From Chloroflexia bacterium (GTDB lineage: Bacteria > Chloroflexota > Chloroflexia > QHBQ01 > JAICKM01): a stretch of DNA of 48,832 bases. The DNA is taken from positions 1 through 48,832 of the forward strand of contig JBBSAN010000001.1 of the NCBI GenBank assembly GCA_038252265.1, read 5' to 3'. Shown in pieces: positions 16,002 to 35,269 of the stretch (position 1 is the first letter of the stretch; the number at the start of each line of letters is the position of its first letter). The notes beneath the pieces were generated by a model that was not told the DNA's origin, did not search any database, and saw only the letters and a list, made by a program, of their open reading frames with translations. A program made the translations under genes and the position numbers.

Positions 16002-19000
16002 ATGGCCTACACCTCTTTCCCCGACCCGGTGCGACCCGCATCGGTGGTCCTGCACACCCGGTGTTGTGTGCCGCAACTTGGTTGGGACCCTTTTTCCCGT
16101 GACTCGTTGCTCAGTCGGCTACAGGATAGCACGCGCAAATACCGGTTGACGCTGATCAGTGCCCCTTCAGGGTATGGCAAAACGACCCTGGTCGCTGATT
16201 TTGCTAACCGCCAGGCGGGGTCGCTCGGCTGGATCAGCCTGGAAGACGAGCACAACGACCCGCTCCTGCTGCTGGCCTATTTGCAGACCGCACTTCAGCG
16301 CCAGTTACCCTCCGGCTTTGACCTGAGCCTGGCGCTGGAGCCGCGCGCGGCCCTGACCCTGTTGCTCAATGCGTTGGACCCTGGCGGGGCGGCGGGGAGC
16401 TTGTTGATTCTGGATAACCTGCACCGGCTGGTTACCCCGGACGCCCTCGCCCTGGTGGGCCGCCTGATTGAGTATGCAGGCACCCATCTGCACTTCATCG
16501 CCCTCGCCTGGGGCGAACCGCGCCTGGACAATCTCTCGCGCCTCCGCGCCGCCGGGCAGGTCGCCACCTTCACCGCCGACGATCTCCGCTTCACCCCCGA
16601 CGAAACCCAGGCGCTGCTGGAGCAGGCCAATCGCGCCCCGCTCCCGGCGAGGGCCACGGCTACGATCGACGTCCAGTTGGAAGGGTGGGCGTTGGGCGTG
16701 CGGCTGCTGGCTGACAGCGTCCTGCGCGCCCCGGTCGCCACGACGGCGGATCTCGCCAACCGGCTCGACACCCTGCGCCCGCAGCTCTTTGACTATCTGG
16801 CGCAGGAAGTCCTGAATCCCCAGCCTGCCGCCCTGCGCACCTTCCTGCTTCACACCGCGATCCTCGACACCCTGGACGCCGCCGCGTGCCGCGCCCTGGG
16901 CGGGCCGGGGGCACAACAATGGTTGACCGACCTGGATCGGCACCTGGCGCTGGTGCAGCCGGTGGACACCGAACGGCGGCAATGGCGCTACCGGGTGTTC
17001 TTTCGTCAGTTCCTCCAGCATGTGCTGGAGCGGGTGCTGGAGCCTGCGGCCATTCGGGAACTGCACGGCGTCGCGGCCACCCACTACTTGGCCGCGCGCG
17101 ACGAAGAGCAGGCTCTAGCCCACCTGCTGGCGGCGGGGGCCTACGAGCCGGCGGCGGATTTGCTGGGCCGCCTGCTGGAATCACGCTATGCGGCCAGCCA
17201 CTCCCTGGCGTTGGCCGAATGGCTCCCCCGGTTTCCTGTCGCTCTCAGCGAAGCCCATCCCTGGCTCATCCTGGCCCAGGCGCGGCTGAGCAGTCTCAGC
17301 GACAACCCCGGTGCCACCGAGCAGCTTTATGAGCACGCGGAAACGGTGGCCCGCGAGATGGGCGACCAGCGGGCCATCTTCCTGGCGCGCTACTACCGGG
17401 CCGGTTGGCTCCTGCGCCGAGGGCGGTTTCGCTCGGCGGCGGCGCTCTACCGCCAGACGCTGCCCCTGGCGACCGACGCGGCAGAGCAGGCCGACCTGTT
17501 GAGTCATGTTGCCTATACGCTCTATATGGGTACGGGCCAGACCGACGAAGCCCTGGACTTGCTCGATCAGGCCCTGGATCTATTCCGGGGCAGCGATCGC
17601 TCGGCGCGCACGATCAATATCCTGCAACTCCAGGCTGATATGCGCTTTAATCTAGGCGATCTGCGCGGGGCGCTCGCCGGGTATCATACCGTGCTGGACC
17701 TCGCGGCGCAGGAGGGCAACCTGCCCGAACTGGCGGCGATCCGTTATAAAGCGGCGTACATCCATGTCCTCTGCGGGGAATGGACCGCCGGCGAAGCCCT
17801 GGCCGAGCAGGAGCATACCCTGGCCCACGACGCGAATCTCCCACGCCGTGATGCCGATGCGACGCTCATCCGGGGCATGGTCGCCCAGGGGCGGTGGCAC
17901 TTCGCCCAGGCGCGAGCCTACTATGAGGAGGCGCTGACGATTTATCGCCAGCTTAACGATCAGCGCCAACTGGCCCTGGTGCTGACCTGGCTGGGCACCC
18001 TGGCCCGCCGCGAAGGCAAGCTCGAAGAGGCGGTCCATTGTGGCGAGGCGAGCCTGGCCCTGCGGCAGAAGCTGAACGTACCCTATGAGTTGGGGCTGAC
18101 CCTGATCAGCCTGGGCCGCAGCCTGGCCGAACAAGGCGCGTGGGATCAGGCGCGGACCCACTGGACCACGGCGCTGGAGATTTTCACCTGTGCGCGGGCG
18201 CATTATATGGAAGCCCAGCTACATATCTACCTGGCGGGCGGGGCTTTGCAGAACCCCGAAGGTGCGCAAACAGCGGGGCTGCACAGCCACCTGACGGCAG
18301 CGCTGGCTCTCTGCTGGCGTTATGACTACAGCTTTCTCTTTACCAGCGACCCGGCGTGGAGTGCGCCGCTGCTGGTGGCGGCCATTGAGGCGGGCATTGA
18401 CGTGCCCACCGCGACGCAATTTCTACAGCACATCGGTAAGACCGGGACCACCGAGGCCTTGACCGCCCTGACGACGGTGAAGCCGGGAGTGCCACGCGCC
18501 AAACGAGCGGTCGCGGCGGCCCTCGATACCTGGCTGGAGGTGCCCCCGGAGCCGCTCTATATCCGCACTCTGGGCACCTTCACCCTTCAGCGGGGCGAAC
18601 GGGTGATCAGCAACTGGCCGCGGGCCAGTGCGCGGGCGGTCTTCCAGTACCTGCTGTTGTTCCGCAGCCGCCCGGTGCCGATGGAGGAACTGACCGAGGT
18701 GTTCTGGCCCGATAGCGCCCCGGCTCCGGCCCGGAAGAACCTCCATCAGGCGGTGGCGGCCCTGCGCCATGCCCTGGAGCCGGAACTGCCGATGGGCATC
18801 GCCTCACGCTACCTGCGGGTCAACAGCGGCACCTACCAGATCGTCTTACCCACGGGATCCACCCTCGCTGACGAACAATTCTTGAGCCAAAGTACGGTGC
18901 GCCAGAGCGTGCCGGTGTTGGAGCAGGCCGTGCGGCTCTATCAAGGCGACTACCTGGCCGACCAACCCTATGCGGAGTGGACGATGCCCCGGCGCGAACA

Positions 19001-19280
19001 ACTGCGCGTCGTCTATCATGATCTGCTCTTGCGCCTCGCCGCCGCCTATTTCGCGGCGGATCGCCTGGCCGACTGTATCACCGTCGCCCAAACCCTGTGG
19101 GACCAGGAACCGTGGAGCGAGGAGGCGGTGTTGTGGCTGATGCAGGCCCACGCAGCACGGGGCAATCGTGCTCCGGCCTTGCGGGCCTATCAAACCCTGG
19201 CGGCGCGGCTCCAGGCCGAACTGAACATCACCCCCCGCGCCGATGTCACCGCATTCTATCAGCAATTATTGCGCTCGTAA
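16002..19280 (+). CDS. Large STAND-type regulator: MalT-like P-loop ATPase + TPR array + C-terminal SARP module (OmpR-type winged helix + BTAD)
   Basis: Walker A LISAPSGYGKTTLV, Walker B LLILDNLH, and long TPR-like helical repeats. The last 243 aa (18549-19277) read LYIRTLGTFTLQRGERV...ELTEVFWPD...NLHQAVAALRHAL, then LYQGDYLADQPYAEW...RE.L...Y.DLL, the BTAD signature. ATG 16002 preceded by AGGAGA is preferred over 15933. Confidence 0.85.
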   Translation: MAYTSFPDPVRPASVVLHTRCCVPQLGWDPFSRDSLLSRLQDSTRKYRLTLISAPSGYGKTTLVADFANRQAGSLGWISLEDEHNDPLLLLAYLQTALQRQLPSGFDLSLALEPRAALTLLLNALDPGGAAGSLLILDNLHRLVTPDALALVGRLIEYAGTHLHFIALAWGEPRLDNLSRLRAAGQVATFTADDLRFTPDETQALLEQANRAPLPARATATIDVQLEGWALGVRLLADSVLRAPVATTADLANRLDTLRPQLFDYLAQEVLNPQPAALRTFLLHTAILDTLDAAACRALGGPGAQQWLTDLDRHLALVQPVDTERRQWRYRVFFRQFLQHVLERVLEPAAIRELHGVAATHYLAARDEEQALAHLLAAGAYEPAADLLGRLLESRYAASHSLALAEWLPRFPVALSEAHPWLILAQARLSSLSDNPGATEQLYEHAETVAREMGDQRAIFLARYYRAGWLLRRGRFRSAAALYRQTLPLATDAAEQADLLSHVAYTLYMGTGQTDEALDLLDQALDLFRGSDRSARTINILQLQADMRFNLGDLRGALAGYHTVLDLAAQEGNLPELAAIRYKAAYIHVLCGEWTAGEALAEQEHTLAHDANLPRRDADATLIRGMVAQGRWHFAQARAYYEEALTIYRQLNDQRQLALVLTWLGTLARREGKLEEAVHCGEASLALRQKLNVPYELGLTLISLGRSLAEQGAWDQARTHWTTALEIFTCARAHYMEAQLHIYLAGGALQNPEGAQTAGLHSHLTAALALCWRYDYSFLFTSDPAWSAPLLVAAIEAGIDVPTATQFLQHIGKTGTTEALTALTTVKPGVPRAKRAVAAALDTWLEVPPEPLYIRTLGTFTLQRGERVISNWPRASARAVFQYLLLFRSRPVPMEELTEVFWPDSAPAPARKNLHQAVAALRHALEPELPMGIASRYLRVNSGTYQIVLPTGSTLADEQFLSQSTVRQSVPVLEQAVRLYQGDYLADQPYAEWTMPRREQLRVVYHDLLLRLAAAYFAADRLADCITVAQTLWDQEPWSEEAVLWLMQAHAARGNRAPALRAYQTLAARLQAELNITPRADVTAFYQQLLRS

Positions 19281-19319
19281 GGCCGTTGCGGTGAAGCGGG
19301 GGCCCGGCCAGGGCCGATT

Positions 19320-19351
19320 GTCACCGATTTGTCACCAGGCTATGCTATAAA
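19320..19351 (+). promoter_or_regulatory. SARP-box promoter A: GTCACCG-ATTT-GTCACCA-GGCTATGC-TATAAA
   Basis: Two heptamers 11 bp apart, with the 3' heptamer 8 bp from a TATAAA(AT) -10. Starts 40 nt after the regulator stop and about 210 nt upstream of the Cys-rich peptide gene. A near-identical copy lies at 31571-31602. Confidence 0.65.
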
Positions 19352-19563
19352 ATCATCACCGGGTCTGGTTTATGGCCTGGCATGTCACCCGTCGATCGTT
19401 CCCACTGCACCACCCCGCACCCGGCTGTGCACCTCGCGCGGCTGCGACGGGCAAGGGAACGCGACACGGGCGCTCTGCTGGTCCGGTCACTATGATCCGT
19501 CTCTGCTCATCAGACAATGGGCAGGCTGATTCAATTGTGCGCAAATTATTAAGGAGGCAGACA

Positions 19564-19995
19564 ATGGCGGACATCGAAGGTAGCAATGCTCCGGAACCCA
19601 TCGAGCTTGATCGCGCAGCCCTGCGCCGCGCCCTGGTCAAGTATCCCGAAATCGTGGCAGAAGCCCTGGGCACCCAGGCCCGCGAAGCCATGCCCCTGGA
19701 CACCCCCCTCAGCGAGATGCTCGCGCCTGAGCTGCGGGAAAAGATCCCCGCCCACATCGCGGCGTTGAGCAAGGGCGACCTGATGGCCCTGGGCGGCTGG
19801 AACGGCACGAAGAACCCGGCGGACCTGGGCTTGAACGCCGAAGATGTTTCGACGATCCGCGACCTCTTCAGCACCGAGCTGCTGCCGGTCGAAGTGCGCG
19901 GCTACCTCGCCGCCGAGATTTCGATCAGCTGCTGCTGCTGCACCCCGTGCTGTTGCGCCGCCGCTGAGACCGAACCAGTGCGCACCCTCGCCTAA
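19564..19995 (+). CDS. 143-aa candidate RiPP precursor with C-terminal SISCCCCTPCCCAAAETEPVRTLA
   Basis: Strong RBS AAGGAGG 6 nt before ATG 19564, with GC3-rich codon usage throughout. Seven Cys in nine residues (19930-19956), all within the last 21 residues. The leader-like N-terminal part is acidic and helical. A radical SAM gene follows directly. The ORF-track N-terminal extension from 19372 is rejected (no RBS, Arg/Pro-rich). Confidence 0.75.
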   Translation: MADIEGSNAPEPIELDRAALRRALVKYPEIVAEALGTQAREAMPLDTPLSEMLAPELREKIPAHIAALSKGDLMALGGWNGTKNPADLGLNAEDVSTIRDLFSTELLPVEVRGYLAAEISISCCCCTPCCCAAAETEPVRTLA

Positions 19996-20073
19996 GCCAA
20001 TCGGGAGAAATAAGATCAGGCCAGAACGCGAGGTGCTGGCGCTTTGATCTTAGTTCCCCTCTTAGCGGCTAGT

Positions 20074-20111
20074 CCACCCGTACCCTTCCTGCGTGGGAGG
20101 GGTGCGGGTGG
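20074..20111 (+). terminator. Stem-loop (possible attenuator) between the precursor and radical SAM genes
   Basis: CCACCCGTACCC (20074-20085) pairs with GGGTGCGGGTGG (20100-20111), a 12-bp stem with one G-T pair, followed by ATTTGGGCTTTGTT. A second hairpin at 20012-20051 (AAGATCA..TGATCTT around GCCAG..CTGGC) precedes it. Confidence 0.45.
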
Positions 20112-20166
20112 ATTTGGGCTTTGTTACGATGGACGCTAGTGGATCCAGAAAGCTAAGGAGATATAC

Positions 20167-21576
20167 ATGAAGATCCTCTTGATCTGGCCGAAGTCGCGCA
20201 ATGAGATCCTAGGCTGGGGAGACCTCGGAGCCATCGCCGAGCCACTTGCTCTGGAGTATTTGGGCGCAGGGGCCAGGTTGGACGGGCATCAGGTGCGGTT
20301 GCTGGATCTACGGCTGCACCCGGACGAGCTAGAAACCACCATCCAGGAATATGACCCCGATCTCGTCGGTATCACCGCTTTCTCCATGCATGTCATTTCG
20401 GCGTTAGCGATTTGCCGCCGGATCAAAGCGGTCAATCCCCGCTGCTACACCGTGGCCGGGGGCCACCATGCCACGTTCTTGCCGGAAGACTTTTTCGAGC
20501 CGCAAATCGATTTTGTGGTGTCGGGCGAAGGCGTCACGCCTTTCCGCAGCCTGCTCCAGGCGCTTGCCAATCACGAGCCGCTCGTGGGCATCCCCGGCCT
20601 CTGGGGTCGCGTCGAGGGCACGTTTGCCTATGGGGGGGAACAACCTCCGTTCAATATCGACGAACTGCCGACCCCTGATCGGTCATTAACCGAGCGCGAC
20701 CGCTCCCGCTATTTCATTGACTGGATGAAGCCGATCGCCCTGGTGCGGACCACCGTGGGGTGCCCCTACCGCTGCTCCTTCTGCTCGCTGTGGAAGATGA
20801 TGGATGGGCGCTACTTCATGCGTGAGATCGACAGCGTGGTGGCGGAAATGGCGACCATCAAGGAAGAGTTTGTGTTCCTGGTGGACGACGAAGCCTTCAT
20901 CAACGGCCCACGCATGGTGCAACTGGCCCAGGCGCTCAAGGCCGCCGGGATTCATAAGCGGTTCTTCACCTATTGTCGCATTGACAGCCTGATCCGCCAG
21001 CGCAAAGCCCTGGCCGCCTGGCACGAGATCGGGCTGGAGCGCTTGTTCATCGGCGTAGACGCAATTTCCGAGAAGGACCTGGGGGAATATAACAAGCACC
21101 TGAAGGTCTCGCAGATCGAGGAAGGTTTCCGGGCCGCCAAAGCCCTGGATATTGAGATCTTCGCCCAGTTCGTGGTGAACACCGACTATACCCGCCGCGA
21201 CTTCCAACAACTGATCCGCTTTATTGAGCACCACAAGATCCGCTACCCCTCCTTCACGGTGCTCACGCCCATTCCGGGCACCGACATGCTTTCCACCTTC
21301 GATAATGTGATCGAGGTCCAGCCGAACGGTCGCCCGAACTGGGATCTCTTCGACTGCCAGAACGCCGTGACCGCGACCCAGTTGCCCAAGCGTGAGTTCC
21401 TCAAGTTGTACCGCGATCTGTACACCGTCTTCAAGGGGGCCTACTCCCAGTACCGGGAGCATGTGAACGTGCAAACCCGCCAGGAGCAGGTGGTGGCCGA
21501 GAACGGGCGGCGCGGCACAATCGAGTCGGTGCGTCCTTACAGCCAGGCCGAGGAAGCCCTGACCTACAGCTCTTGA
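20167..21576 (+). CDS. B12-binding-domain radical SAM enzyme (class B rSAM)
   Basis: N-terminal Rossmann-like KILLIWPK...LEYLGAG...VRLLDLRL...DLVGITA as in cobalamin-binding domains. CPYRCSFCS CxxxCxxC cluster motif. RBS AAGGAG. Confidence 0.85.
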   Translation: MKILLIWPKSRNEILGWGDLGAIAEPLALEYLGAGARLDGHQVRLLDLRLHPDELETTIQEYDPDLVGITAFSMHVISALAICRRIKAVNPRCYTVAGGHHATFLPEDFFEPQIDFVVSGEGVTPFRSLLQALANHEPLVGIPGLWGRVEGTFAYGGEQPPFNIDELPTPDRSLTERDRSRYFIDWMKPIALVRTTVGCPYRCSFCSLWKMMDGRYFMREIDSVVAEMATIKEEFVFLVDDEAFINGPRMVQLAQALKAAGIHKRFFTYCRIDSLIRQRKALAAWHEIGLERLFIGVDAISEKDLGEYNKHLKVSQIEEGFRAAKALDIEIFAQFVVNTDYTRRDFQQLIRFIEHHKIRYPSFTVLTPIPGTDMLSTFDNVIEVQPNGRPNWDLFDCQNAVTATQLPKREFLKLYRDLYTVFKGAYSQYREHVNVQTRQEQVVAENGRRGTIESVRPYSQAEEALTYSS

Positions 21577-21677
21577 TCGACCCCTACTCGCACAAGGCTT
21601 CGGCGTGTAATTCCTGGCTGCCGGAGTCGGACTCCGGCGCATGTCACAACATACTCCGCTAACCCAACGCATACTCA

Positions 21678-21722
21678 GTCAACAAAGCACTCCGGGCGGG
21701 GTGCTTTGTTGACTTTATTTTT
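21678..21722 (+). terminator. Intrinsic terminator after the radical SAM gene
   Basis: Perfect 13-bp stem GTCAACAAAGCAC / GTGCTTTGTTGAC, a 10-nt loop, then TTTATTTTT. Confidence 0.85.
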
Positions 21723-21733
21723 CGCCCCGAGGA

Positions 21734-21742
21734 TGGTATAAT
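21734..21742 (+). promoter_or_regulatory. Extended -10 promoter (TGGTATAAT) for the ABC exporter operon
   Basis: TGnTATAAT directly after the terminator and about 80 nt before GTG 21820. No good -35 was seen. Confidence 0.5.
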
Positions 21743-21819
21743 CAGCCCCATTCTCAGGGCAGGCGCATATCCTGGCTCCCCTGCTGATCCCAGGACCCTA
21801 GCCCCCAAGGAGGCACCAC

Positions 21820-23571
21820 GTGGAGGAGAAGCGCAACGACCTATGGCGACCCCTGGTATATCTCCGGGCGTACCCCCGCTTGATGATTGCCATTGTTGTC
21901 ACCATGCTCATCTCGGTTGCGGCGACGCTGGGGGTTCCCCAGATCGTGAAGACGGTCATCAACGCGACCCTCTCGAACCGTGAGCAAAGCATCGCCATTC
22001 TAGGTGGGCTGGCGATCGTCGGGCTGGCGTTCGTGCAGAGTGTCACGCGCTTTTTGCAAGGGTTTTTCTCGGTCCAGGTGGCCGAGGGATTGGCCTATGA
22101 CGTGCGGAGCGCTCTCTTCAAGAAGCTCCAGAGCCTGGGATTTAGCTATCATGATCGGGCCGACCAGGGCCAGATGATCACCCGCCTCACCTCGGATGTG
22201 GACAATATCCGCAGCTTCACCAGTAGCCTGCTCAGCCAGATTATGAACACGGTCCTGATCGTGATCGCCAGTGCGGTGCTCCTGCTCCTGATCAACTGGC
22301 CCCTGGCGCTGCTGACCTTCCTCGTCGTCCCCCCGATGCTGCTGGTCTTGAACAAGTTCCAGAAGATGGCCGGGCCGCTCTTCGGGCAAAGCCAGCGGAT
22401 GCAAGGCATGTTGATCTCGATCTTGCAGGAGAATATCACCAACTCGCGCGTGGTGCGGATCTTCAACCGCCAGGGCTACGAGGTGGATCGCTTCACCAAG
22501 GCGGTGCAGTCGTACTTCCAGGCGATGATGCAAATCATCAAAGCGGTTTCGTGGATCTTCCCCCTGAATGCCTTCCTGGGCACGGTGGCGACCTTCCTCA
22601 TCATCGGGGTCGGCGGCTACGATGTCATCACCAAGACGATGTCGCTGGGCGACCTGATCGCCTTCAACACCTATTTCTCGATCATGATCTTGCCGCTCTT
22701 CGCCCTGGGCAGCATCACGTTCCAGATGGCTTCGGCCTCGGCCTCGACCACCCGGGTCTATGAGGTGATGGACGAACCGGCGGATCTGGCGGTGCCTACG
22801 GCGGCCAAAGAACTGACGGCTGTGACGGGGCGGATCACGTTCGATCATGTGTCGTTCCGCTATCCGGGCACCGAGAACGACATCGTGAAAGATGTCAGCT
22901 TCACCGTCGAGCCGGGGCAAATGGTGGCCCTGGTCGGCTCCACCGGATCGGGTAAATCCACCCTGCTCCATCTGCTGCCGCGCTTCTACGATGTCACCGA
23001 GGGCCGGATCCTGCTGGACGGGCAGGATGTGCGCGAGGTGAGCCTGGAAGCCCTCCGGCGGCAGGTTGTGCTGGTGCGGCAGACCACCCAATTGTTCCGC
23101 GCCACCATCCGCGAAAACATCGCCTTTGGGCGACCGGAGGCGACGCTGCTGGAGATCCAGGAAGCGGCCCGCGTGGCCCAGGCGCAAGACTTTATCGAGG
23201 CCTTGCCCCAGGGTTATGAAACCTCGTTAGGCGAGGGCGGATCGGGCCTGTCCGGTGGGCAGCGCCAACGCCTCGCGCTGGCCCGTGCCTTGCTCCTCCG
23301 CCCGCCCGTGCTGATCCTGGACGATAGCACCTCGGCGCTGGATGCGGCGACCGAGCGGAACTTCATGGACGCGCTGGCGAAGCTCCCCTATCCCTGCACC
23401 CGCCTCGTCATCTCGGAGCGCCCCAGCACCGTCGAGCGCGCCGATCAGATCCTGGTCCTGGAGGAAGGGCGGATCACCGCCCAGGGCAGCTACCAGGAGC
23501 TATTGCAGGTCAATCGTGTGTTTGCCGCGTTGTTCAGCACCCCATCACCGCGAGAGGTTGTGACCGTATGA
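21820..23571 (+). CDS. ABC exporter subunit 1 (TMD-NBD half transporter, degenerate-site partner)
   Basis: 6-TM exporter domain, Walker A GSTGSGKST, canonical signature LSGGQRQR. Walker B is ILDDSTSALD, with Asp in place of the catalytic Glu. GTG start preceded by AAGGAGG. Confidence 0.9.
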   Translation: MEEKRNDLWRPLVYLRAYPRLMIAIVVTMLISVAATLGVPQIVKTVINATLSNREQSIAILGGLAIVGLAFVQSVTRFLQGFFSVQVAEGLAYDVRSALFKKLQSLGFSYHDRADQGQMITRLTSDVDNIRSFTSSLLSQIMNTVLIVIASAVLLLLINWPLALLTFLVVPPMLLVLNKFQKMAGPLFGQSQRMQGMLISILQENITNSRVVRIFNRQGYEVDRFTKAVQSYFQAMMQIIKAVSWIFPLNAFLGTVATFLIIGVGGYDVITKTMSLGDLIAFNTYFSIMILPLFALGSITFQMASASASTTRVYEVMDEPADLAVPTAAKELTAVTGRITFDHVSFRYPGTENDIVKDVSFTVEPGQMVALVGSTGSGKSTLLHLLPRFYDVTEGRILLDGQDVREVSLEALRRQVVLVRQTTQLFRATIRENIAFGRPEATLLEIQEAARVAQAQDFIEALPQGYETSLGEGGSGLSGGQRQRLALARALLLRPPVLILDDSTSALDAATERNFMDALAKLPYPCTRLVISERPSTVERADQILVLEEGRITAQGSYQELLQVNRVFAALFSTPSPREVVTV

Positions 23572-25847
23572 GCAGCCCGACTCCCGCCCAAACGATCCGT
23601 ACTACCGACCGCACGGCGCGCGGCGGGGCCGAGGCTCGCCCGGCCCCCGCCCAAGGCCCGGGGTTGCGGGTCTTTGCCCGCCTGGGCGAGTTTATCAAGC
23701 CGGACCGCGCCCAGGTCCTGCTGGTCTTGTTGATGACCATTGTGGGCGGCATCGCCAGCGCCACCGGCCCCGCCCTGGTCGCCCAGGCGATCAACGGGCC
23801 AATCGTGCGCGGCGACACGACCGGCCTGGTGTTCGTCCTCATCCAGATCGGCGTGATCTACATCCTGAGCTTCGTCATGCAGATGATCCAGCTCTATCTG
23901 CTGGGGGCGCTGGCCCAACGGGTGCTCCAACGGCTGCGGGTGGCGATCATGCAGAAGCTCTCCGAACTGGATATCGCCCAGTTTGATCAGCAATCCTCCG
24001 GCGATTTTATTGCCCGCCTGACCAATGACCTGAACCGGCTGGCGGCCTTGTTCGGGCAGAGCCTGATGCAAACCTTGGGTTCCAGTGCCGTGCTGATCGT
24101 CGTGCTGGTGACCATGCTGGCCCTGGACTGGCGGCTGGCCCTGGCGAGCTTCGTGGTCCTGCCGCTGATCTTCTGGGTCACGCTCTATCTCTCCCGGCGA
24201 ACCTTCACGGCGGCGGGGCAGTCCCGCGCCGCCAGCAGCAACCTGACCGAGGCGTCCCGCGAGGAGTTGACCAATATCCGGGTAAGCCAGGTGTTCAACC
24301 GCGCCGCCGTGAACCAGGAGCACTTCCAGCGCATTGGCGGGGTGTACCGGGATGCGGTGGTGCGCGAGGCTCGCTGGACCGATGCTTCGACACCGATCAA
24401 CTCGGTCCTGTCGGCCCTCTCCCTCGCCATTGTGATCGGCTTCGGCTCCTACCTGACCCTCAACGGCCTGTCCACGGTCGGGACCGTGGTCGCCTTTATC
24501 CTCTACGTGCAGCAATTCAACTGGCCGTTGCAGTCCACGGCCAACCTCTATAACCAGCTTCAGGGGACGGTCGCCTCGGCCCAGCGCATCTGGGAGATCC
24601 TGGATACCCCGGTAACGGTGCGCGATGCGCCAGACGCGCAGGAACTCACATCCCTCACCGGCGAAGTGGTCTTCGAGAATGTCACCTTTGGCTACAAGCA
24701 GGGTCAGCCGGTCATCCGCGATGTGAACCTCACCATCCCCGCCGGGAAGACGGTGGCGGTCGTCGGGGCCACCGGGGCGGGCAAGTCTACCCTGGTCAAT
24801 CTGGTGACACGCTTCTATGATGTGTGGTCGGGGCGGGTCTTGGTGGACGGCCACGATGTGCGCTCGCTGACCCAGGCCAGCCTGCGCAGCGAGATGGCGG
24901 TCATCCTCCAGGAAAGCCAGCTCTTTGCCGGAACGATTGGCAGCAACATCCGCTATGGACAACTGACGGCGACCCAGGACGAAGTGATCGAAGCGGCGAA
25001 AGCCGCGAACGCCCACGACTTTATCATGGCCCTCCCCAAAGGCTACGACACGCCGATCGGGGGGCGCGGAATCACCCTCAGCAACGGCCAGGCGCAATTA
25101 CTGGTCTTCGCTCGCGCCCTGGTTCGCAATCCCAAAATCTTGATCCTCGATGAAGCGACCAGCACGCTCGATGTCGAAACGGAGCGGATCGTGCATGAAG
25201 CCCTGGAACGGGTGCTGGAGAACCGTACCAGCCTGGTGATCGCCCACCGGCTCAGCACCATCCGCAATGCCGATCAGATCGTCGTTATGGACCTGGGCCA
25301 GGTGGTCGAGCAGGGCACCCACGATGAGTTGATGGCGCAGGGCGGGCGCTATGCGGCCCTCGTCGCTCACCAGGGCGCGGGCAGCCTGCGGGTGGGCGTG
25401 GAGGCGGATCGCCTGGCGGCGATCCCGCTGTTCGCCCAACTGAGCGAGGACACGCGGCGGACTCTGGCCGAAGCCCTGCACACAGAGCGGCACGGGGCCG
25501 GAGAGGATATCGTGGAGCAGGGAGCGTTCGGCGGTAACTTCTACGTGATCAGTAGCGGGCAAGTCGAAGTGCTGGTGGACACAAACGGCACCGAGCAGGT
25601 GCTCAGTATCCTCAACGCCGGGGACTACTTTGGCGAGATCGCGCTCGTCGAAAAGGCGGCACGCACCGCGACCGTGCGTACAACCCAGGCGACCGAATTG
25701 TACACGCTGGATCAGGCCGACTTCGCGGCGCTGCTGGAGCGCGAAGCCGGGCTGCGCCAGGCCATGGCCGAGATCATCCTGCGCCGTGAGGATGAATTGA
25801 CCGCCCCGGTCGGAGCCGGACGCAACGGCGCGGCGGCAGCCGTCTAA
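23568..25847 (+). CDS. ABC exporter subunit 2 (TMD-NBD) with C-terminal cyclic-nucleotide-binding (CAP-type) domain
   Basis: ATGA overlap with subunit 1. Walker A GATGAGKST and Walker B ILDEATSTLD (catalytic Glu present), but a deviant signature LSNGQAQ. The last ~150 aa (from about 25383) read IPLFAQLSEDT...GEDIVEQGAFGGNFYVISSGQVEV...GDYFGEIALVEKAARTATVRT, the cNMP-binding signature. Confidence 0.9.
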   Translation: MSSPTPAQTIRTTDRTARGGAEARPAPAQGPGLRVFARLGEFIKPDRAQVLLVLLMTIVGGIASATGPALVAQAINGPIVRGDTTGLVFVLIQIGVIYILSFVMQMIQLYLLGALAQRVLQRLRVAIMQKLSELDIAQFDQQSSGDFIARLTNDLNRLAALFGQSLMQTLGSSAVLIVVLVTMLALDWRLALASFVVLPLIFWVTLYLSRRTFTAAGQSRAASSNLTEASREELTNIRVSQVFNRAAVNQEHFQRIGGVYRDAVVREARWTDASTPINSVLSALSLAIVIGFGSYLTLNGLSTVGTVVAFILYVQQFNWPLQSTANLYNQLQGTVASAQRIWEILDTPVTVRDAPDAQELTSLTGEVVFENVTFGYKQGQPVIRDVNLTIPAGKTVAVVGATGAGKSTLVNLVTRFYDVWSGRVLVDGHDVRSLTQASLRSEMAVILQESQLFAGTIGSNIRYGQLTATQDEVIEAAKAANAHDFIMALPKGYDTPIGGRGITLSNGQAQLLVFARALVRNPKILILDEATSTLDVETERIVHEALERVLENRTSLVIAHRLSTIRNADQIVVMDLGQVVEQGTHDELMAQGGRYAALVAHQGAGSLRVGVEADRLAAIPLFAQLSEDTRRTLAEALHTERHGAGEDIVEQGAFGGNFYVISSGQVEVLVDTNGTEQVLSILNAGDYFGEIALVEKAARTATVRTTQATELYTLDQADFAALLEREAGLRQAMAEIILRREDELTAPVGAGRNGAAAAV

Positions 25848-26155
25848 GAGGAATCGAGGTCGATTCGCGTATAGCCCCAGCAGCACAAAACGGGGCATTG
25901 TTGCGTTATCATTAGTGGTCGTATAAATGTCATAAGGCAGCGTCCTGCGAGCTGGACAGCACTGATGCTTCCTACTACGCGTTGTGGGTCCGCCCTTGGC
26001 GCACGCCTGCTGCCCTTGTAGTCGCTTGGCTCCTTTGGAAGGAACATGTGAGGATAAGACCCGTACGGCAGGGTTGGGACCGGGCCTGCTGATCCCTACC
26101 TGGCGGGCACCACGGCGCACCACCAGTGGCAACATAGTGGATAGAGGAGTTAGTC

Positions 26156-26377
26156 ATGAGCATGGAGAAGTATCCGGCAGACGTTCAGGCAACAGCAGAA
26201 GCTATTCACCAACGCGCCGAGAGTGATGCGCGCTTTAAAGTGCGCTTGCAAGATGATCCGGTGCGGGTTTTGCTGGCGGCGGGCCTGCCTGAAAATGCGC
26301 TACGGGACTTTATGCGGCAAGAAGGGCTGGAAGCCGAAGTCATGGGGTATATGGAAGAACTGGAAGACGCCTGGTAA
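26156..26377 (+). CDS. 73-aa acidic peptide with NHLP/Nif11-leader-like N-terminal region
   Basis: AIHQRAESDARFKVRLQDDPVRVLLAAGLPENAL resembles the (I)xxxAxxDxxFKxxLxxDPxxxLxxxGL core of nitrile-hydratase-like leader peptides. RBS AGAGGAG. The C-terminal 22 residues (FMRQEGLEAEVMGYMEELEDAW) have no Cys, Ser, Thr or GG site. Confidence 0.55.
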   Translation: MSMEKYPADVQATAEAIHQRAESDARFKVRLQDDPVRVLLAAGLPENALRDFMRQEGLEAEVMGYMEELEDAW

Positions 26378-26453
26378 AATAGCCCCCCTGGTTTCGTCCC
26401 CAGGTACGTGCATTGTCGTGGCGCGCCTCTGGTTTACTTGAGCGTATAGGCTG

Positions 26454-26500
26454 CATAACAAGGCCAGCATCCTCGCTGTGAGGATGCTGGCCTTGTTATG
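26454..26500. terminator. Perfect 21-bp hairpin between convergent genes (bidirectional terminator candidate)
   Basis: CATAACAAGGCCAGCATCCTC, loop GCTGT, GAGGATGCTGGCCTTGTTATG. Confidence 0.7.
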
Positions 26501-26518
26501 GCCCCGGAACGCGGACCG

Positions 26519-27382
26519 TTACTCTGCGGGGGCCGCAGGCTCGCCGCCGGCTGACGCGGTCTGCCGGACAACGTTGTGCGAGAGCGCACGCAGGATGGCT
26601 TTCATCTGGAAGATCGTCAGGTAGGGATGGTTGGCGATGATCTTGGTGATGATGCCGGTGATGTGCGGGGCGGCGAAGCTGTTGCCCGTGGCGGTGATCC
26701 ATTCGCCGCCGGCCCAGGGCACCCGGACCCCCGTGCCGAAGGCCCCGAATTCCACCGGCGGCTCCGGGTTATAGTAAAACACATCGGGATCCTGGAGGCT
26801 GTGCGAGGCTACCGAGAAGACCGAGGCATACATCGACGGGAAGCTGGGGATGGGCATGTTATTGGCCGCCGTGACCAGCATGATGTTGCGGAAGTAGGCG
26901 CGATCGGCCAGTTCGTGGAAGGTAGCAAAAAAATCTTTCTTGGTCGTGCCCAGGCTCAAGTTGCAGACGTGCATCTCGTTGTCGAGCGCCCATTTGAGGC
27001 CCGCCGCAAAAATGACCCCCCGGCCCGACAGCCCGGCCCCCAGCACCTTCACGCTATACAATTCACAGTCGGGAGCCAGCGCCCGGATAATCCCGGCACA
27101 GGCGGTGCCGTGGCCGTAGGAGTCCTCGTGGGGGGCCGTGTTGTAGATGAGCTTCCCATCGGTCTCCGGGTCCTCGGTAATCTCGACATAGCCCTGAACC
27201 CCGCCCACTGCGGGATGGTTGGCATCGATCCCGCTGTCGATGACGGCGACCTTGACCCCTTTACCCGTGCTGCCACCCCAGGCCCAGTCGGCCTTGATAT
27301 TATCCAGCGGCAGGATCGCCTGGAGGGGCGACAGCACGTCCGAGTCAAACTGGGAGCTCCACGCAAGGCGGCGCTTCGTCAT
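26519..27382 (-). CDS. Subtilisin-like S8 serine peptidase, no signal peptide
   Basis: Catalytic Asp VAVIDSGID, His HGTACAG, Asn NLSLG and Ser GNSFAAPHITG. ATG 27382 shares its A with the TAA stop of the upstream GAF gene. The N-terminus MTKRRLAWSSQFD is not hydrophobic. Confidence 0.9.
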   Translation of the reverse strand: MTKRRLAWSSQFDSDVLSPLQAILPLDNIKADWAWGGSTGKGVKVAVIDSGIDANHPAVGGVQGYVEITEDPETDGKLIYNTAPHEDSYGHGTACAGIIRALAPDCELYSVKVLGAGLSGRGVIFAAGLKWALDNEMHVCNLSLGTTKKDFFATFHELADRAYFRNIMLVTAANNMPIPSFPSMYASVFSVASHSLQDPDVFYYNPEPPVEFGAFGTGVRVPWAGGEWITATGNSFAAPHITGIITKIIANHPYLTIFQMKAILRALSHNVVRQTASAGGEPAAPAE

Positions 27383-28269
27383 TACATGGCTCCTAACTCC
27401 GCCATGGTCATCGGGCGGGCACGCAGATATTCCAGGAAGTTGCTCAGGATGGAATGGCACAATTTGGCCTCGGCAGGTCCGGCCCAGGTCAGTTCTTGCA
27501 CCATCCGGGCTAGCTCCAGCGCCTGCTGGTAGGCAGGATCGGCCTCAGTATGCTGGCCGAAGAGAATGGCCCCCCGGTGCAGCCCTTCCCGCCGGTGCTC
27601 GTCCATCCCGCCGAAGGACTGGAGCACTTCCAGGATCAGCCCGGCCAGGTTGCGGTGAGTCCGCGACTGCTCGATGGCGACGGCGGCCTGGTTGGCAAAC
27701 AAGCCCAGGATGTGAATATCGTTCTCATCGAACGCGGGCGCGCCCTCTTTATCGAGCAGTTCCAGCACCCCGATGATCTGGTCATTAAAAAAGAGGGGGA
27801 CGCAGACGATGTTCTGGGGCACGTAGCCCACGCTCTGGGCGATGTCCGCCGCCTGCCGGCTGTCCTTCTGGGCATCGGACACGGCCATCGGCTGGCCGGT
27901 CACGGCGACCAGACCCGCGATCCCGTGGCCGAGCGGCAGGCGGAATTTCTTGACCTCGCTCGCCTTTTGCCCGAGCGCGATTTCGAACATTAATTCCTGC
28001 GTCTCCTGGTCGATCAGGAAGAGCGCGGCGGCCTTGGCCGAAATCACATTCGCCGCGGTTTCGACGATCATCTCCAGCAAGCGGCTATAGGTGACTGGAG
28101 AAGCGATGGTTCCGGCGGCTGACGCTAAAATAAGTGCTTCCCGCAACTCCTCGGCAAAACGTTCGTCCGCCAGGCGGCGGCGCAGGCGCTCGACCTCGAC
28201 CCCTTCCCGGTTGCCTGCCTTGTTCTCGTCAGGCGTTGACTGGTTCCCATTGCCACTCGTATCACTCAT
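27382..28269 (-). CDS. GAF-domain protein
   Basis: GAF-like core AAALFLIDQETQELMFEIALG...GIAGLVAVTGQPMAVSD...NIVCVPLFFNDQIIGVLELLDK, then a helical C-terminal region. ATG 28269 is preceded by AAGGAGG; the ORF-track extension to 28371 is rejected. Confidence 0.8.
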   Translation of the reverse strand: MSDTSGNGNQSTPDENKAGNREGVEVERLRRRLADERFAEELREALILASAAGTIASPVTYSRLLEMIVETAANVISAKAAALFLIDQETQELMFEIALGQKASEVKKFRLPLGHGIAGLVAVTGQPMAVSDAQKDSRQAADIAQSVGYVPQNIVCVPLFFNDQIIGVLELLDKEGAPAFDENDIHILGLFANQAAVAIEQSRTHRNLAGLILEVLQSFGGMDEHRREGLHRGAILFGQHTEADPAYQQALELARMVQELTWAGPAEAKLCHSILSNFLEYLRARPMTMAELGAM

Positions 28270-28293
28270 CGTTAACCTCCTTATTTGCCCCGC

Positions 28294-28322
28294 ATTGTAC
28301 GGGAAACGCCCTCGGTTGTCAA
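28294..28322 (-). promoter_or_regulatory. Sigma-70 promoter (TTGACA-17-TACAAT on the minus strand) for the GAF-S8 operon
   Basis: Minus-strand TTGACA = 28322-28317, a 17-bp spacer, TACAAT = 28299-28294, about 25 nt upstream of the start codon. Confidence 0.6.
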
Positions 28323-28432
28323 TACGAAAGGCAGGCAAATTTCCCCCCAATACGGCCAAGGGCACGCACATAATTGTTGCTAGTTTTTCATCTGATCAAC
28401 CAGCCTTATCCTGTGGTACTGCAATTGTGAAC

Positions 28433-28461
28433 TTGACAGCATGGCTGATTCGTGGTATCCT
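28433..28461 (+). promoter_or_regulatory. Sigma-70 promoter (TTGACA-17-TATCCT) for the cyclase-STAND gene
   Basis: -35 at 28433-28438, a 17-bp spacer, -10 at 28456-28461. Divergent from the GAF promoter. Confidence 0.55.
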
Positions 28462-28596
28462 CGGTCCATCTTTCCTACCTACACACCCTACCCAATTCCG
28501 GTCACCGCCAGACCCTAACTGAATAATCCAGTGCATTGGAATTAGCCCCTAAGCCGCAGCAAATGTTGGCTTGTCATGTTGCATAGGAGGCACTGA

Positions 28597-31530: not shown

Positions 31531-31570
31531 CCGGGCACTCGTCGCTAGCCAGCCGGGGGCGGGCGGGTTC

Positions 31571-34429: not shown

Positions 34430-34444
34430 AAAGAAGGGATCCCT

Positions 34445-35266: not shown

Positions 35267-35269
35267 GCG

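What the first reader, a model, noticed from the sequence alone, without database searches (positions are those of the whole stretch)
19318..19353. Near-identical SARP-box promoters in front of both halves of the cluster
Seen: 19320-19351 GTCACCG-ATTT-GTCACCA-GGCTATGC-TATAAA and 31571-31602 GTCACCC-TTTT-GTCACTC-GGCTGTGC-TATAAA share 27 of 32 positions, and both continue with AT. Each starts 40-41 nt after the stop of a large STAND/TPR gene (16002..19280 and 28597..31530). Established: SARP activators (ActII-ORF4, DnrI, AfsR) bind heptameric direct repeats with an 11-bp period, and the 3' repeat lies 8 bp upstream of the -10 hexamer. That geometry is reproduced here exactly at both sites. The regulator at 16002..19280 ends in an OmpR-type wHTH + BTAD (SARP) module. 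Inference: that regulator activates both promoters, which ties the Cys-rich peptide/rSAM unit and the TOMM operon into one regulon. The parallel 'STAND gene then box' layout hints at a duplicated module.
Basis: partly seen in the sequence, partly recalled or inferred. Interest (0 to 1): 0.78.

Follow-up and report, generated by a model that had tools for sequence, protein, structure and literature searches.

The report
Twin SARP-box promoters, split peptide cluster
Two near-identical 36-bp promoter elements head the two halves of a thiazole-peptide gene cluster that an insertion split apart, and they have the exact layout that SARP-type activators bind; the likely activator, encoded next door, is an unusual MalT-like ATPase with its SARP DNA-binding module at the C-terminal end.

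Summary
GTCACnn-N4-GTCACnn-N8-TATAAA occurs exactly twice in the window (19320-19351 and 31571-31602), against 0.05 expected. The two sites share 27 of 32 positions, and the similarity ends after about 36 bp. The geometry is the published SARP rule: an 11-bp period with the 3' repeat 8 bp from the -10. There is no -35 at usable spacing, and both sites carry a TGn extended -10. The adjacent regulator (16002-19280) is a MalT-type STAND ATPase whose C-terminus is a genuine wHTH+BTAD module by sequence and by predicted fold. Comparative data support binding by this regulator type. Five Chloroflexota homologue loci carry boxes of the same geometry with different heptamers. In Acidobacteriota loci, TCAAG-N6-TCAAG occurs 85 times against about 3 expected, with TAnnnT exactly 8 bp downstream in 46 cases. 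The recognition helix varies with the box class. Relatives of the biosynthetic cluster are single contiguous gene strings. In the window about 10 kb is inserted after the rSAM gene, and box 2 sits ahead of the second half. Binding is inferred rather than shown. The source genome could not be scanned, and its taxon is undetermined. A PhoB-type regulator remains a rival.

The parts
16002..19280 (+). Cluster-situated regulator, 1092 aa: a MalT-type STAND ATPase (Walker A GYGKT, MalT winged-helix domain, MalT-type TPR sensor) with a C-terminal SARP module
   Evidence: Pfam hits AAA_22/AAA_16, TPR_MalT and BTAD. NCBIfam MalT E 2e-55 over residues 29-567. Most homologues carry a LuxR HTH (PF00196), and a subset carries BTAD instead. 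AlphaFold mean pLDDT 86. Foldseek match to MalT 8bob_C, E 1e-15.
18549..19277 (+). SARP module of the regulator (about residues 850-1092): OmpR-type winged helix (beta-sheet 852-869, recognition helix 907-925, wing 938-947) followed by BTAD helices 956-1091
   Evidence: phmmer alignment over about 225 residues to EmbR 2fez (E 4e-7) and AfsR 8hvr/8k60. Pfam BTAD E 1e-18 and weak Trans_reg_C E 0.009. Foldseek match to AfsR SARP in the initiation complex 8k60_J, target TM 0.75, rmsd 3.8 A.
19318..19340 (+). Box 1 direct repeats: TTGTCACC-gat-TTGTCACC-aggc, i.e. heptamers GTCACCG (19320-19326) and GTCACCA (19331-19337) with an 11-bp period
   Evidence: The 8+3 organisation matches the published contact pattern, in which each protomer contacts the first 8 bp of an 11-bp repeat (PMC10936776).
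19343..19351 (+). Box 1 extended -10: TGC + TATAAA. The hexamer 19346-19351 lies 8 bp after the 3' heptamer. The predicted start is near 19358.
   Evidence: Direct reading. A separate TGgTATAAT promoter at about 21734-21742 shows that this promoter type is used in this DNA. The start site is inferred, not mapped.
19564..21576 (+). First half of the biosynthetic unit: precursor peptide (19564-19995, RBS AAGGAGG at 19552, core ISISCCCCTPCCCAAAETEPVRTLA) and B12-binding radical SAM enzyme (20167-21576)
   Evidence: Orthologous to L085/L087 precursors (37-39% identity, core conserved) and rSAM (66%).
21677..21714 (+). Strong intrinsic terminator (17-bp stem followed by a T-run) that would end the box-1 transcript after the rSAM gene
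21715..31530 (.). Block of about 10 kb absent from related clusters: two ABC exporters (21820-23571; 23568-25847, the second with a cNMP-binding domain), S8 peptidase (26519-27460, minus strand), GAF protein (27382-28371, minus strand), and cyclase-NB-ARC-TPR STAND protein (28597-31530)
   Evidence: Pfam. In L085, L087 and L089 the rSAM and ThiF-like genes are 33-103 nt apart.
31569..31591 (+). Box 2 direct repeats: TCGTCACC-ctt-TTGTCACT-cggc, i.e. heptamers GTCACCC (31571-31577) and GTCACTC (31582-31588) with an 11-bp period
31594..31602 (+). Box 2 extended -10: TGC + TATAAA (hexamer 31597-31602), 8 bp after the 3' heptamer. The predicted start is near 31609.
   Evidence: Direct reading. The start site is inferred.
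31989..39298 (+). Second half of the biosynthetic unit: ThiF-like/SagC-type (31989-33095), YcaO/SagD-type (33092-34429), nitroreductase-type dehydrogenase (34445-35266), 778-aa TPR protein (35270-37606), Rieske oxygenase (37500-38483), alpha/beta hydrolase (38480-39298)
   Evidence: Pfam and NCBIfam. All are orthologous and collinear with L085 at 42-68% identity.

Best explanation
The two 36-bp elements are activator-dependent promoters of the SARP-box type. Each has two 11-bp direct repeats (8 conserved bp, consensus TTGTCACY, plus 3 variable bp) placed where a -35 would be. The 3' heptamer lies 8 bp upstream of an extended -10 (TGC-TATAAA). The proposed activator is the protein encoded immediately upstream of box 1, a MalT-type STAND ATPase whose C-terminal output domain is a SARP module (OmpR-type winged helix plus BTAD) instead of the usual LuxR helix-turn-helix. 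By analogy with AfsR and MalT, nucleotide and ligand binding to the NOD-TPR body would drive oligomerisation. Two SARP modules would then sit side by side on the two repeats, stand in for the missing sigma region 4 / -35 contact, and recruit RNA polymerase. Transcription would start about 7 nt after TATAAA, near 19358 and 31609. Box 1 would drive the precursor and the B12-rSAM gene up to the terminator at 21677-21714. Box 2 would restart transcription of the cyclodehydratase, dehydrogenase and tailoring genes. In related clusters all these genes form one contiguous gene string. In the window about 10 kb of export, protease and cyclic-nucleotide genes is inserted after the rSAM gene, and a copy of the same promoter element keeps the second half under the same control. 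Shown here: the sequence, its rarity and its geometry; the domain identity and predicted fold of the regulator; the split synteny; and the association of this regulator family with boxes of the same geometry elsewhere. Inferred: binding, activation, start sites, the oligomerisation trigger, and the direction of the insertion event.
For: (1) The motif occurs twice in the window against 0.05 expected, and the similarity is limited to about 36 bp.
(2) The geometry equals the published SARP rule: 11-bp period, 3' repeat 8 bp from the -10, 8 contacted bp per repeat (PMC10936776).
(3) There is no -35 at 16-18 bp spacing (direct reading) and both sites have a TGn extended -10. By contrast the regulator's own upstream region and the second STAND gene have ordinary TTGACN-17-TAT hexamer pairs.
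(4) The regulator's C-terminus is a SARP module by sequence and by predicted structure.
(5) Independent loci encoding homologues (24-29% identity) have the same 7-4-7-8-hexamer layout on the same strand. L002 has GTTATTC x2 26 nt after the stop. L066 has GTAACCG/GTAACCT 15 nt after the stop. L046 has two GTGACAG boxes, each before an NHLP-clan small ORF. L022 has TTTTGTCAGT x2 with a 9-bp spacer and ATGCTATAAG. That is 5 hits in the 250 nt downstream of the stops against 0.76 expected.
(6) In the Acidobacteriota members, TCAAG-N6-TCAAG occurs 85 times in 54 loci against about 2.8 expected and 0-7 for other gaps. 76 of the 85 are on the regulator's strand, mostly 130-290 nt upstream of the regulator gene. 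TAnnnT lies exactly 8 bp downstream in 46 of 85, and in 0-1 at any other spacing from 4 to 13.
(7) The recognition helix is nearly invariant (EKNFHPT[VI]SHIRKALNS) in TCAAG loci and differs in each locus that has a different heptamer.
(8) Relatives of the biosynthetic cluster are contiguous, with an rSAM-ThiF gap of 33-103 nt, so the two halves belong to one pathway and need co-expression.
Against: There is no experimental evidence of binding, activation or start sites. The source genome could not be scanned: the motif search of the metagenome collection gave one hit, inside coding sequence and of the order expected by chance, and the genome collection held no close relative. Restriction of the motif to this locus is therefore shown only for 48.8 kb. 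The 8-bp spacer between the repeats and the -10, which a SARP is not expected to read, is also 7 of 8 identical. So the similarity partly reflects common descent of the two copies rather than independent selection. Box 2 lies 380 nt upstream of the first gene of its half, and a weak sigma-70-like candidate lies nearer at 31826-31853. Only about 5 of 13 Chloroflexota-type homologue loci show a box directly downstream. The heptamer resembles PhoB/PhoP-type boxes. The closest relative of the regulator (35% identity) is on a contig too short to test.
Confidence: 0.7

Rival explanations
1. The repeats are bound by an OmpR/PhoB-family response regulator, for example a phosphate-limitation regulator, rather than by the MalT-SARP protein. 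PhoB/PhoP boxes are also 7+4 direct repeats that replace the -35. On this reading the cluster is tied to a global nutrient signal.
For: From my own knowledge, the E. coli pho box (CTGTCAT-AWAW-CTGTCAY) and the Streptomyces PHO box (GTTCACC units) resemble TTGTCACC, and AfsR and PhoP are known to compete at overlapping sites. The window encodes an OmpR-family response regulator with its kinase at 5257-5997 and 3633-5288 on the minus strand.
Against: That response regulator is generic. Its best match is MtrA-like and every match is below the curated cut-offs, so nothing marks it as PhoB. It lies 13 kb away among unrelated genes. This rival does not explain why boxes of the same geometry but different sequence sit beside MalT-SARP genes in many unrelated genomes, or why the regulator's recognition helix varies with them.
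Confidence: 0.12
2. The elements are ordinary, activator-independent extended -10 promoters. Their similarity is only the trace of a recent copy of one promoter fragment made when the cluster was rearranged, and the internal direct repeat has no protein partner.
For: The TGn-TATAAA extended -10 can work without a -35. The non-contacted spacer is also 7 of 8 identical, which points to common descent. TTGTCA resembles TTGACA (5 of 6), and the scan lists TTGTCA-17-TATGCT at site 1.
Against: The TTGTCA units lie 22 and 11 bp from TATAAA, which is unusable spacing. At site 2 the alternative -10 reads TGTGCT, which lacks the essential A. The internal 11-bp repeat is preserved in both copies (8 of 8 and 6 of 8), and the same repeat architecture recurs with other sequences beside homologous regulators. 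The exporter promoter at about 21734-21742 shows what a box-less extended -10 looks like in this DNA.
Confidence: 0.1
3. The element is a dispersed non-promoter repeat (REP- or MITE-like, or a recombination site) that happens to lie after two large genes.
For: There are two copies in the same orientation in intergenic DNA, and the genome-wide copy number is unknown.
Against: Only two copies occur in 48.8 kb, the box is in none of the 20 largest direct-repeat families reported for the window, and the element has direct rather than inverted repeats. Both copies point into the two halves of one pathway. A specific search of the metagenome collection found no true copy.
Confidence: 0.03

Closest known systems
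SARP-dependent promoters of Streptomyces (afs box of afsS bound by AfsR; ActII-ORF4 and DnrI heptamer repeats)
   Same: Heptamer direct repeats with an 11-bp period, the 3' repeat 8 bp from the -10, the repeats occupying the -35 position, 8 conserved plus 3 variable bp per repeat, and a cluster-situated activator with a wHTH+BTAD module (PMC10936776 and PMC10972967).
   Different: The heptamer is GTCACYN, not what I recall as the classic TCGAGnn. The -10 is a near-consensus extended -10 rather than the weak actinomycete type. The activator carries the SARP module at its C-terminus. The homologues with named sources are from Chloroflexota and Acidobacteriota, whereas the 2024 review calls SARPs exclusive to actinobacteria.
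Large SARPs (AfsR, PolY) and SARP-LAL regulators (PimR, FilR, SanG)
   Same: A SARP DNA-binding module fused to a STAND-type ATPase and a TPR sensor. ATP-driven oligomerisation is expected to control the SARP output.
   Different: The domain order is inverted: NOD-TPR-SARP here against SARP-NOD-TPR there. The ATPase body is MalT-type (WHD_MalT, TPR_MalT; Foldseek best hit MalT 8bob), not NB-ARC as in AfsR.
MalT / LAL family (large ATP-binding LuxR-type regulators)
   Same: The N-terminal 570 residues match MalT (NCBIfam E 2e-55; Foldseek E 1e-15). Most homologues found carry the LuxR-type HTH. MalT also activates from repeated boxes after inducer- and ATP-dependent multimerisation (my own knowledge).
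   Different: The LuxR helix-turn-helix is replaced by the wHTH+BTAD module, so the DNA site type and the polymerase contacts are expected to be SARP-like, not MalT-like.
Pho boxes bound by PhoB/PhoP response regulators
   Same: 7+4 direct repeats replacing the -35, with a TGTCA-like core (my own knowledge).
   Different: No PhoB-specific regulator is identifiable in the window. The association seen here is with MalT-SARP genes across genomes, not with phosphate genes.

Membership tests
SARP-box promoter | Two or more heptameric direct repeats with an 11-bp (or 22-bp) period | tested here: met
   19320/19331 and 31571/31582 are 11 bp apart. Heptamer identity is 6 of 7 at site 1 and 6 of 7 at site 2, and site 1 has a perfect 8-mer repeat, TTGTCACC.
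SARP-box promoter | The 3' repeat lies 8 bp upstream of the -10 hexamer | tested here: met
   GGCTATGC and GGCTGTGC (8 bp each) separate the 3' heptamer from TATAAA at both sites. The rule is as stated in PMC10936776.
SARP-box promoter | The repeats overlap or replace the -35, and no functional -35 is present | tested here: met
   By direct reading, 0-2 of 6 matches to TTGACA at 16-18 bp spacing at both sites.
SARP-box promoter | Bound by a SARP protein, with transcription dependent on it | not testable with these tools
   There is only indirect support: the adjacent SARP-module regulator, and the family-wide co-occurrence of such boxes with homologous regulators.
SARP family regulator | An OmpR-type winged-helix DNA-binding domain directly followed by a BTAD domain | tested here: met
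   BTAD E 1e-18 and Trans_reg_C weak at E 0.009. Full-module alignment to EmbR and AfsR. The predicted fold matches AfsR SARP 8k60 at target TM 0.75.
SARP family regulator | The SARP module is at the N-terminus (small, medium, large and SARP-LAL classes as listed in PMC10972967) | tested here: not met
   The module occupies about residues 850-1092 of 1092, after the ATPase and the TPR region.
SARP family regulator | Actinobacterial distribution ('exclusively found in actinobacteria', PMC10972967) | tested here: inconclusive
   The window's taxon could not be determined. The full-length homologues with record titles are Chloroflexota, Acidobacteriota and Nitrospiraceae MAGs.
MalT / LAL regulator | An N-terminal P-loop NOD with the MalT-type winged helix and a superhelical sensor | tested here: met
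   Walker A GYGKT. NCBIfam MalT E 2e-55, below the equivalog cut-off. PF25873 and PF17874. Foldseek MalT 8bob_C E 1e-15.
MalT / LAL regulator | A C-terminal LuxR-type (GerE) helix-turn-helix | tested here: not met
   There is no PF00196 hit, and the C-terminus is wHTH+BTAD.
Pho box (PhoB/PhoP site) | A match to the pho-box consensus, and a cognate PhoB/PhoR pair | tested here: inconclusive
   By my count, about 13 of 18 positions match the E. coli consensus as I remember it. The only OmpR-family regulator in the window is not assignable to PhoB.
TOMM / azole-containing RiPP cluster (context of the boxes) | A precursor with a Cys-rich core plus SagC-type, YcaO/SagD-type and FMN dehydrogenase genes | tested here: met
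   TIGR03603, TIGR03882 and TIGR03604 (288 bits, above the 219 cut-off), plus Nitroreductase; core CCCCTPCCC.

The most novel reading that the evidence does not exclude
MalT-type STAND ATPases with a C-terminal SARP module are a large, uncharacterised branch of SARP-type activators outside the Actinobacteria, present in Chloroflexota, Acidobacteriota and Nitrospirota MAGs. They use the canonical SARP-box geometry, and so presumably the same -35-replacing contact with RNA polymerase. Box sequence and recognition helix have diversified together: CTCAAGAA-TTYC-TCAAG with the helix EKNFHPT[VI]SHIRKALNS, mostly autoregulatory, in Acidobacteriota, and TGTnAY-type boxes in Chloroflexota, including the window's TTGTCACY. 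If this holds, the regulon of each such regulator can be read from sequence, which would give a handle for switching on silent biosynthetic clusters in phyla that are hard to cultivate.
Probability: 0.6. Interest if true: 0.72.

Novelty: new variant of a known kind. Interest (0 to 1): 0.62.

Why it matters
SARP activators are a main genetic lever for turning on antibiotic clusters, and the 2024 review treats them as an actinomycete speciality with an N-terminal DNA-binding module. Here the same promoter architecture, down to the 11-bp period and the 8-bp distance to the -10, appears next to an inverted-architecture regulator. It recurs at dozens of homologous loci in Chloroflexota and Acidobacteriota MAGs. 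This makes three things directly testable. First, whether SARP-type activation extends well beyond Actinobacteria. Second, whether a MalT-type sensor body can drive a SARP output. Third, whether the targets of these regulators can be predicted from sequence. For this locus it gives a concrete prediction: one regulator and two promoters control a widespread but uncharacterised Cys-rich (CCCCTPCCC) thiazole peptide pathway. It also gives a clear example of how a split gene string can keep coordinated control by reusing a 36-bp promoter element.

Tried and rejected
(1) Genome-wide copy number of the box could not be obtained. The source contig is not on record. The genome collection holds no relative of the regulator closer than 31%. 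The metagenome scan with GTCAC-N6-GTCAC-N2-G-N3-TGCTATAAA gave a single hit inside a coding stretch of a low-GC contig, which I judged to be chance.
(2) The closest homologue of the regulator (P0002, 35% identity) sits on a 4.3-kb contig that ends at its stop codon, so its downstream region cannot be read.
(3) The duplicated-module idea is rejected.
(4) I looked for remnants of the rSAM or ThiF junction, or of any cluster gene, in the 460 nt around box 2 and its leader. No significant tblastn or blastn match was found.
(5) I looked for riboswitches or structured leaders. Rfam gives no hit in either leader, and the folding z-scores are -0.47 and +1.02.
(6) Autoregulation of the window's regulator is not supported. 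There is no box upstream of it; there is only a one-mismatch core on the wrong strand without a -10.
(7) Taxonomy of the window was not resolved. A homologue search with the PLP enzyme found 90-98% relatives but no organism names, and their contigs are not syntenic with the window. Neither the taxon nor the island status of the cluster could be settled.
(8) Relatives of the biosynthetic cluster (L085, L087, L089) have no SARP-type box upstream of the precursor. L085 and L089 have a sigma-70-family (ECF-like) gene there instead. Phylogenetic footprinting of the window's own boxes was therefore impossible.
(9) A literature search for the peptide family (YcaO, B12-rSAM, Rieske, Cys-rich) found nothing.
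Full report
OBSERVATION. Site 1 (19320-19351) reads GTCACCG-ATTT-GTCACCA-GGCTATGC-TATAAA. Site 2 (31571-31602) reads GTCACCC-TTTT-GTCACTC-GGCTGTGC-TATAAA. They share 27 of 32 positions and both continue with AT. They begin 40 and 41 nt after the stop codons of the genes ending at 19280 and 31530. A search for GTCAC-N6-GTCAC-N10-TATAAA with up to three mismatches returns only these two sites in the whole window on both strands. 0.05 are expected, and no shuffle out of 100 reaches two. A pairwise alignment of 240 nt around each site shows that the similarity is confined to about 36 bp and that the flanks are unrelated. The box is in none of the 20 largest direct-repeat families reported for the window.

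First, counted from 19318, the perfect repeat at site 1 is the 8-mer TTGTCACC followed by three variable bases. Second, both hexamers are preceded by TGC, which makes an extended -10. Third, by direct reading neither site has more than 2 of 6 matches to TTGACA at 16-18 bp from TATAAA.

THE REGULATOR. The gene at 16002-19280 encodes 1092 residues. Pfam finds P-loop AAA domains, MalT-type TPR and a C-terminal BTAD. The last 266 residues give BTAD at E 1e-18 and a weak Trans_reg_C hit. They align over about 225 residues with the wHTH+BTAD module of EmbR (E 4e-7) and AfsR (E 5e-5). NCBIfam matches residues 29-567 to MalT (E 2e-55). An AlphaFold model built on ten homologues has mean pLDDT 86. It shows the OmpR-type topology (beta-sheet 852-869, three helices with the recognition helix at 907-925, a hairpin wing at 938-947) followed by an all-helical domain. 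Foldseek's best hit for the N-terminal part is E. coli MalT (8bob, E 1e-15). The C-terminal 250 residues superpose on the AfsR SARP domain from the transcription initiation complex (8k60, target TM 0.75, rmsd 3.8 A).

The architecture is unusual, however. It is a MalT/LAL body with a SARP module in the place of the LuxR helix-turn-helix. Most homologues of the body carry PF00196, and a subset carries BTAD. The 2024 review of SARPs lists only N-terminal SARP modules and calls the family exclusive to actinobacteria (PMC10972967).

GEOMETRY AGAINST THE LITERATURE. The AfsR structure paper states the rule. [quoted passage not shown] Both sites meet every one of these points.

COMPARATIVE EVIDENCE THAT THIS REGULATOR TYPE USES SUCH BOXES. 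The regulator's closest relative is only 35% identical and lies on a contig that ends at its stop codon. More distant full-length homologues (24-31% identity) are common in Chloroflexota and Acidobacteriota MAGs.

In L002 the homologue's stop is followed after 26 nt by GTTATTC-cccc-GTTATTC-gtccgtgc-TACAGT. L066 has GTAACCG-tttt-GTAACCT-ctaaattg-TAAAAT 15 nt after the stop, ahead of a reductase and ketosynthase operon. L046 has two boxes, GTGACAG-gcct-GTGACAG-N8-TAGACT and GTGACAG-tggt-GTGACCG-N8-TAGAAT, each ahead of a small ORF of the Os1348 NHLP clan. L022 has TTTTGTCAGT twice and then ATGCTATAAG, with a spacer one base longer.

A blind scan for any heptamer repeated at 11 bp (at least 6 of 7 matching) with a TA...[TA] hexamer 8 bp downstream gave 5 hits in the 250 nt after the regulators' stops, against 0.76 expected from the loci as a whole. 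The same scan downstream of all other long ORFs gave 15 hits among 493. All 15 were on the regulator's strand, and several were themselves a second kind of box.

That second kind is TCAAGnn-N4-TCAAGnn in the Acidobacteriota loci. TCAAG-N6-TCAAG occurs 85 times in 54 of 80 loci. About 2.8 are expected, and other gap lengths give 0-7. 76 of the 85 are on the regulator's strand, typically 130-290 nt upstream of the regulator gene, sometimes as divergent pairs and sometimes downstream. TAnnnT lies exactly 8 bp after the 3' heptamer in 46 of the 85, and in 0-1 at every other spacing from 4 to 13.

Finally, the segment aligned to the AfsR recognition helix (the region of T88 and R92) is nearly invariant, EKNFHPT[VI]SHIRKALNS, in all TCAAG loci. 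It differs in each locus with a different heptamer. The window has RKNLHQAVAALRHALEP. L005 and L063 share both a helix and an upstream TGCAAAC/TGAAAAC repeat. This is the pattern expected if the wHTH of these proteins reads the repeats. It is correlative evidence, not proof.

WHY TWO BOXES: THE CLUSTER IS A SPLIT GENE STRING. Box 1 is followed after about 205 nt by a 143-aa precursor (RBS AAGGAGG, ATG 19564, C-terminal core ISISCCCCTPCCCAAAETEPVRTLA). A B12-binding radical SAM gene follows, then a strong terminator at 21677-21714. Box 2 is followed after about 380 nt by SagC-type, YcaO/SagD-type and nitroreductase-type genes, a 778-aa TPR protein, a Rieske oxygenase and a hydrolase.

The YcaO protein has many relatives at 60-69% identity. 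In three of them on long contigs the order is precursor, B12-rSAM, ThiF-like, YcaO, dehydrogenase, about 780-aa TPR, Rieske, hydrolase. All genes are co-directional, with only 33-103 nt between the rSAM and ThiF-like genes. Two further, shorter contigs also show an ORF running directly into the ThiF-like gene. All eight window genes are orthologous to L085 (37-68% identity), and the precursor core is conserved.

In the window 10.4 kb lies between the rSAM and the ThiF-like gene. It holds the terminator, a box-less extended -10 (TGgTATAAT, about 21734-21742), two ABC exporters (one with a cNMP-binding domain), an S8 peptidase and a GAF protein on the other strand, and a cyclase-NB-ARC-TPR protein. 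Box 2 sits at the end of this block.

The simplest reading is that an ancestral single gene string was split by an insertion, and that the second half kept coordinated control through a copy of the same promoter element. It does not support the 'duplicated STAND-then-box module'. The two STAND proteins share only TPR-repeat similarity, their NTPase domains belong to different families, and the DNA around the boxes is unrelated. The 7-of-8 identity of the spacer, which a SARP is not expected to read, suggests that the 36-bp element itself was copied.

MECHANISM PROPOSED. The steps below are marked as shown or inferred.
- Shown: two boxes with SARP geometry, no -35 and an extended -10.
- Shown: an adjacent regulator with a bona fide SARP module on a MalT-type body.
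- Shown: the same association across a protein family.
- Shown: one pathway split into two transcription units.
- Inferred: ligand- and ATP-dependent oligomerisation of the NOD-TPR body (as in MalT and AfsR) presents two SARP modules side by side to the two repeats.
- Inferred: these modules replace the sigma region 4 / -35 contact, and transcription starts near 19358 and 31609.
- Inferred: the exporters, which have their own promoter, are not under box control.
- Unknown: the inducing signal.

RIVALS. The first rival is a PhoB/PhoP-type response regulator. Such proteins bind similar 7+4 repeats, the core resembles pho boxes (my own knowledge), and the window encodes an OmpR-family regulator. 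But that protein is generic, and this rival does not explain the family-wide association with MalT-SARP genes.

The second rival is activator-independent extended -10 promoters whose similarity is only a trace of copying. The repeat units lie at unusable distances from the -10. The alternative -10 at site 2 lacks the essential A. The repeat architecture also recurs elsewhere with other sequences.

The third rival, a dispersed non-promoter repeat, has no support in the window or in the metagenome scan.

LIMITS. There is no experimental evidence. The source genome is not in any collection I could search, so 'restricted to this locus' is shown only for 48.8 kb. The window's taxon is undetermined; its regulator's nearest full-length relatives are in Chloroflexota MAGs. 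The 380-nt leader after box 2 is unexplained. It has no Rfam match, no unusual folding and no remnant homology, and a weak sigma-70-like candidate lies nearer the first gene. Not every homologue locus shows a box.

NOVELTY AND SCORE. As a promoter type this is a known kind. The variant is new in three respects: an inverted NOD-TPR-SARP architecture on a MalT body, a new heptamer, and a setting that by the homologues lies outside the Actinobacteria. The family-level result (canonical SARP geometry at dozens of Acidobacteriota and Chloroflexota loci, varying with the recognition helix) is the most interesting outcome, and I did not find it described in the searchable literature. I rate the finding as a new variant of a known kind, with interest 0.62.

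Noticed in passing
L008-L081 (Acidobacteriota loci), e.g. L045 5851(+)/5824(-), L073 5875(+), 10485(+), 14163(+): A conserved box CTCAAGAA-TTYC-TCAAGnn-N8-TAnnnT lies mostly 130-290 nt upstream of the MalT-SARP regulator genes, which suggests autoregulation. It sometimes occurs as divergent pairs or downstream copies. There are 85 hits in 54 loci against about 3 expected. The heptamer is close to what I recall as the classic Streptomyces SARP heptamer, TCGAGnn.
   Followed up: partly
window 23568-25847, 27382-28371 (minus strand), 28597-31530: The inserted block has a cyclic-nucleotide theme. It holds an adenylate/guanylate-cyclase-NB-ARC-TPR STAND protein, an ABC exporter with a C-terminal cNMP-binding domain, and a GAF-domain protein. 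This suggests cyclic-nucleotide control of export or maturation. A link to the MalT-SARP sensor is possible but untested.
   Followed up: no
window 19564-19995; L085 7083-7382; L087 6953-7477; L089 4217-4516: The precursor core (E)ISCCCCTPCCCAAA...EP.R is conserved across contigs of different lineages, together with B12-rSAM, SagC/YcaO/dehydrogenase, a protein of about 780 aa, Rieske and hydrolase genes. YcaO relatives at 60-69% identity are annotated from Chloroflexota, Acidobacteriota, Tectomicrobia, Planctomycetota and Proteobacteria MAGs. I found no paper describing the product.
   Followed up: partly
window 65-141 (+): Rfam match to the group II catalytic intron domain (RF00029, 65.6 bits against a gathering score of 40, E 9e-11) at the very start of the window.
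   Followed up: no
window 21677-21742: A very strong terminator (17-bp stem plus T-run) is followed at once by a box-less extended -10 (TGgTATAAT) ahead of the ABC exporter genes. The exporters therefore appear to be transcribed independently of the boxes.
   Followed up: partly
window 31603-31920 (+): An ATG overlaps the end of box 2's -10 (31603), and a second in-frame ATG lies at the predicted start site (31609). They open a 105-codon ORF of odd, Arg/Ser/Pro-rich composition. It could be a leaderless ORF or, more likely, noise in GC-rich DNA. The 380-nt leader otherwise has no recognisable feature.
   Followed up: partly
L046 5245-7368: There are two tandem paralogous modules. Each consists of a box, then an Os1348 NHLP-clan small ORF (93 and 99 aa), then a secreted protein with PPGYGGPGG repeats. 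A second MalT-type regulator with a LuxR HTH follows at 7442-10165.
   Followed up: no
L005 and L063, upstream of the regulator gene, minus strand: Two Chloroflexia homologues share the recognition helix MTAFHTALSRLR and an upstream divergent repeat, TGCAAAC-RATT-TGAAAAC, 8-9 bp from a TAnnAT hexamer. This may be a third helix/box class.
   Followed up: no
L085 6411-6869 and L089 3111-3839: Related clusters carry a sigma-70-family (ECF-like) gene upstream of the precursor instead of a MalT-SARP regulator. They also share a conserved upstream segment (GGGTGTCGACCCCAA...CCGTCCTTCAAGCTC). The same pathway is therefore wired to different regulators in different lineages.
   Followed up: no
window 48523-48832: A 12-nt tandem periodicity runs over about 300 nt to the end of the window, inside the ORF 48003-48830 on the minus strand, which has no Pfam match. 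It is probably a repetitive protein.
   Followed up: no
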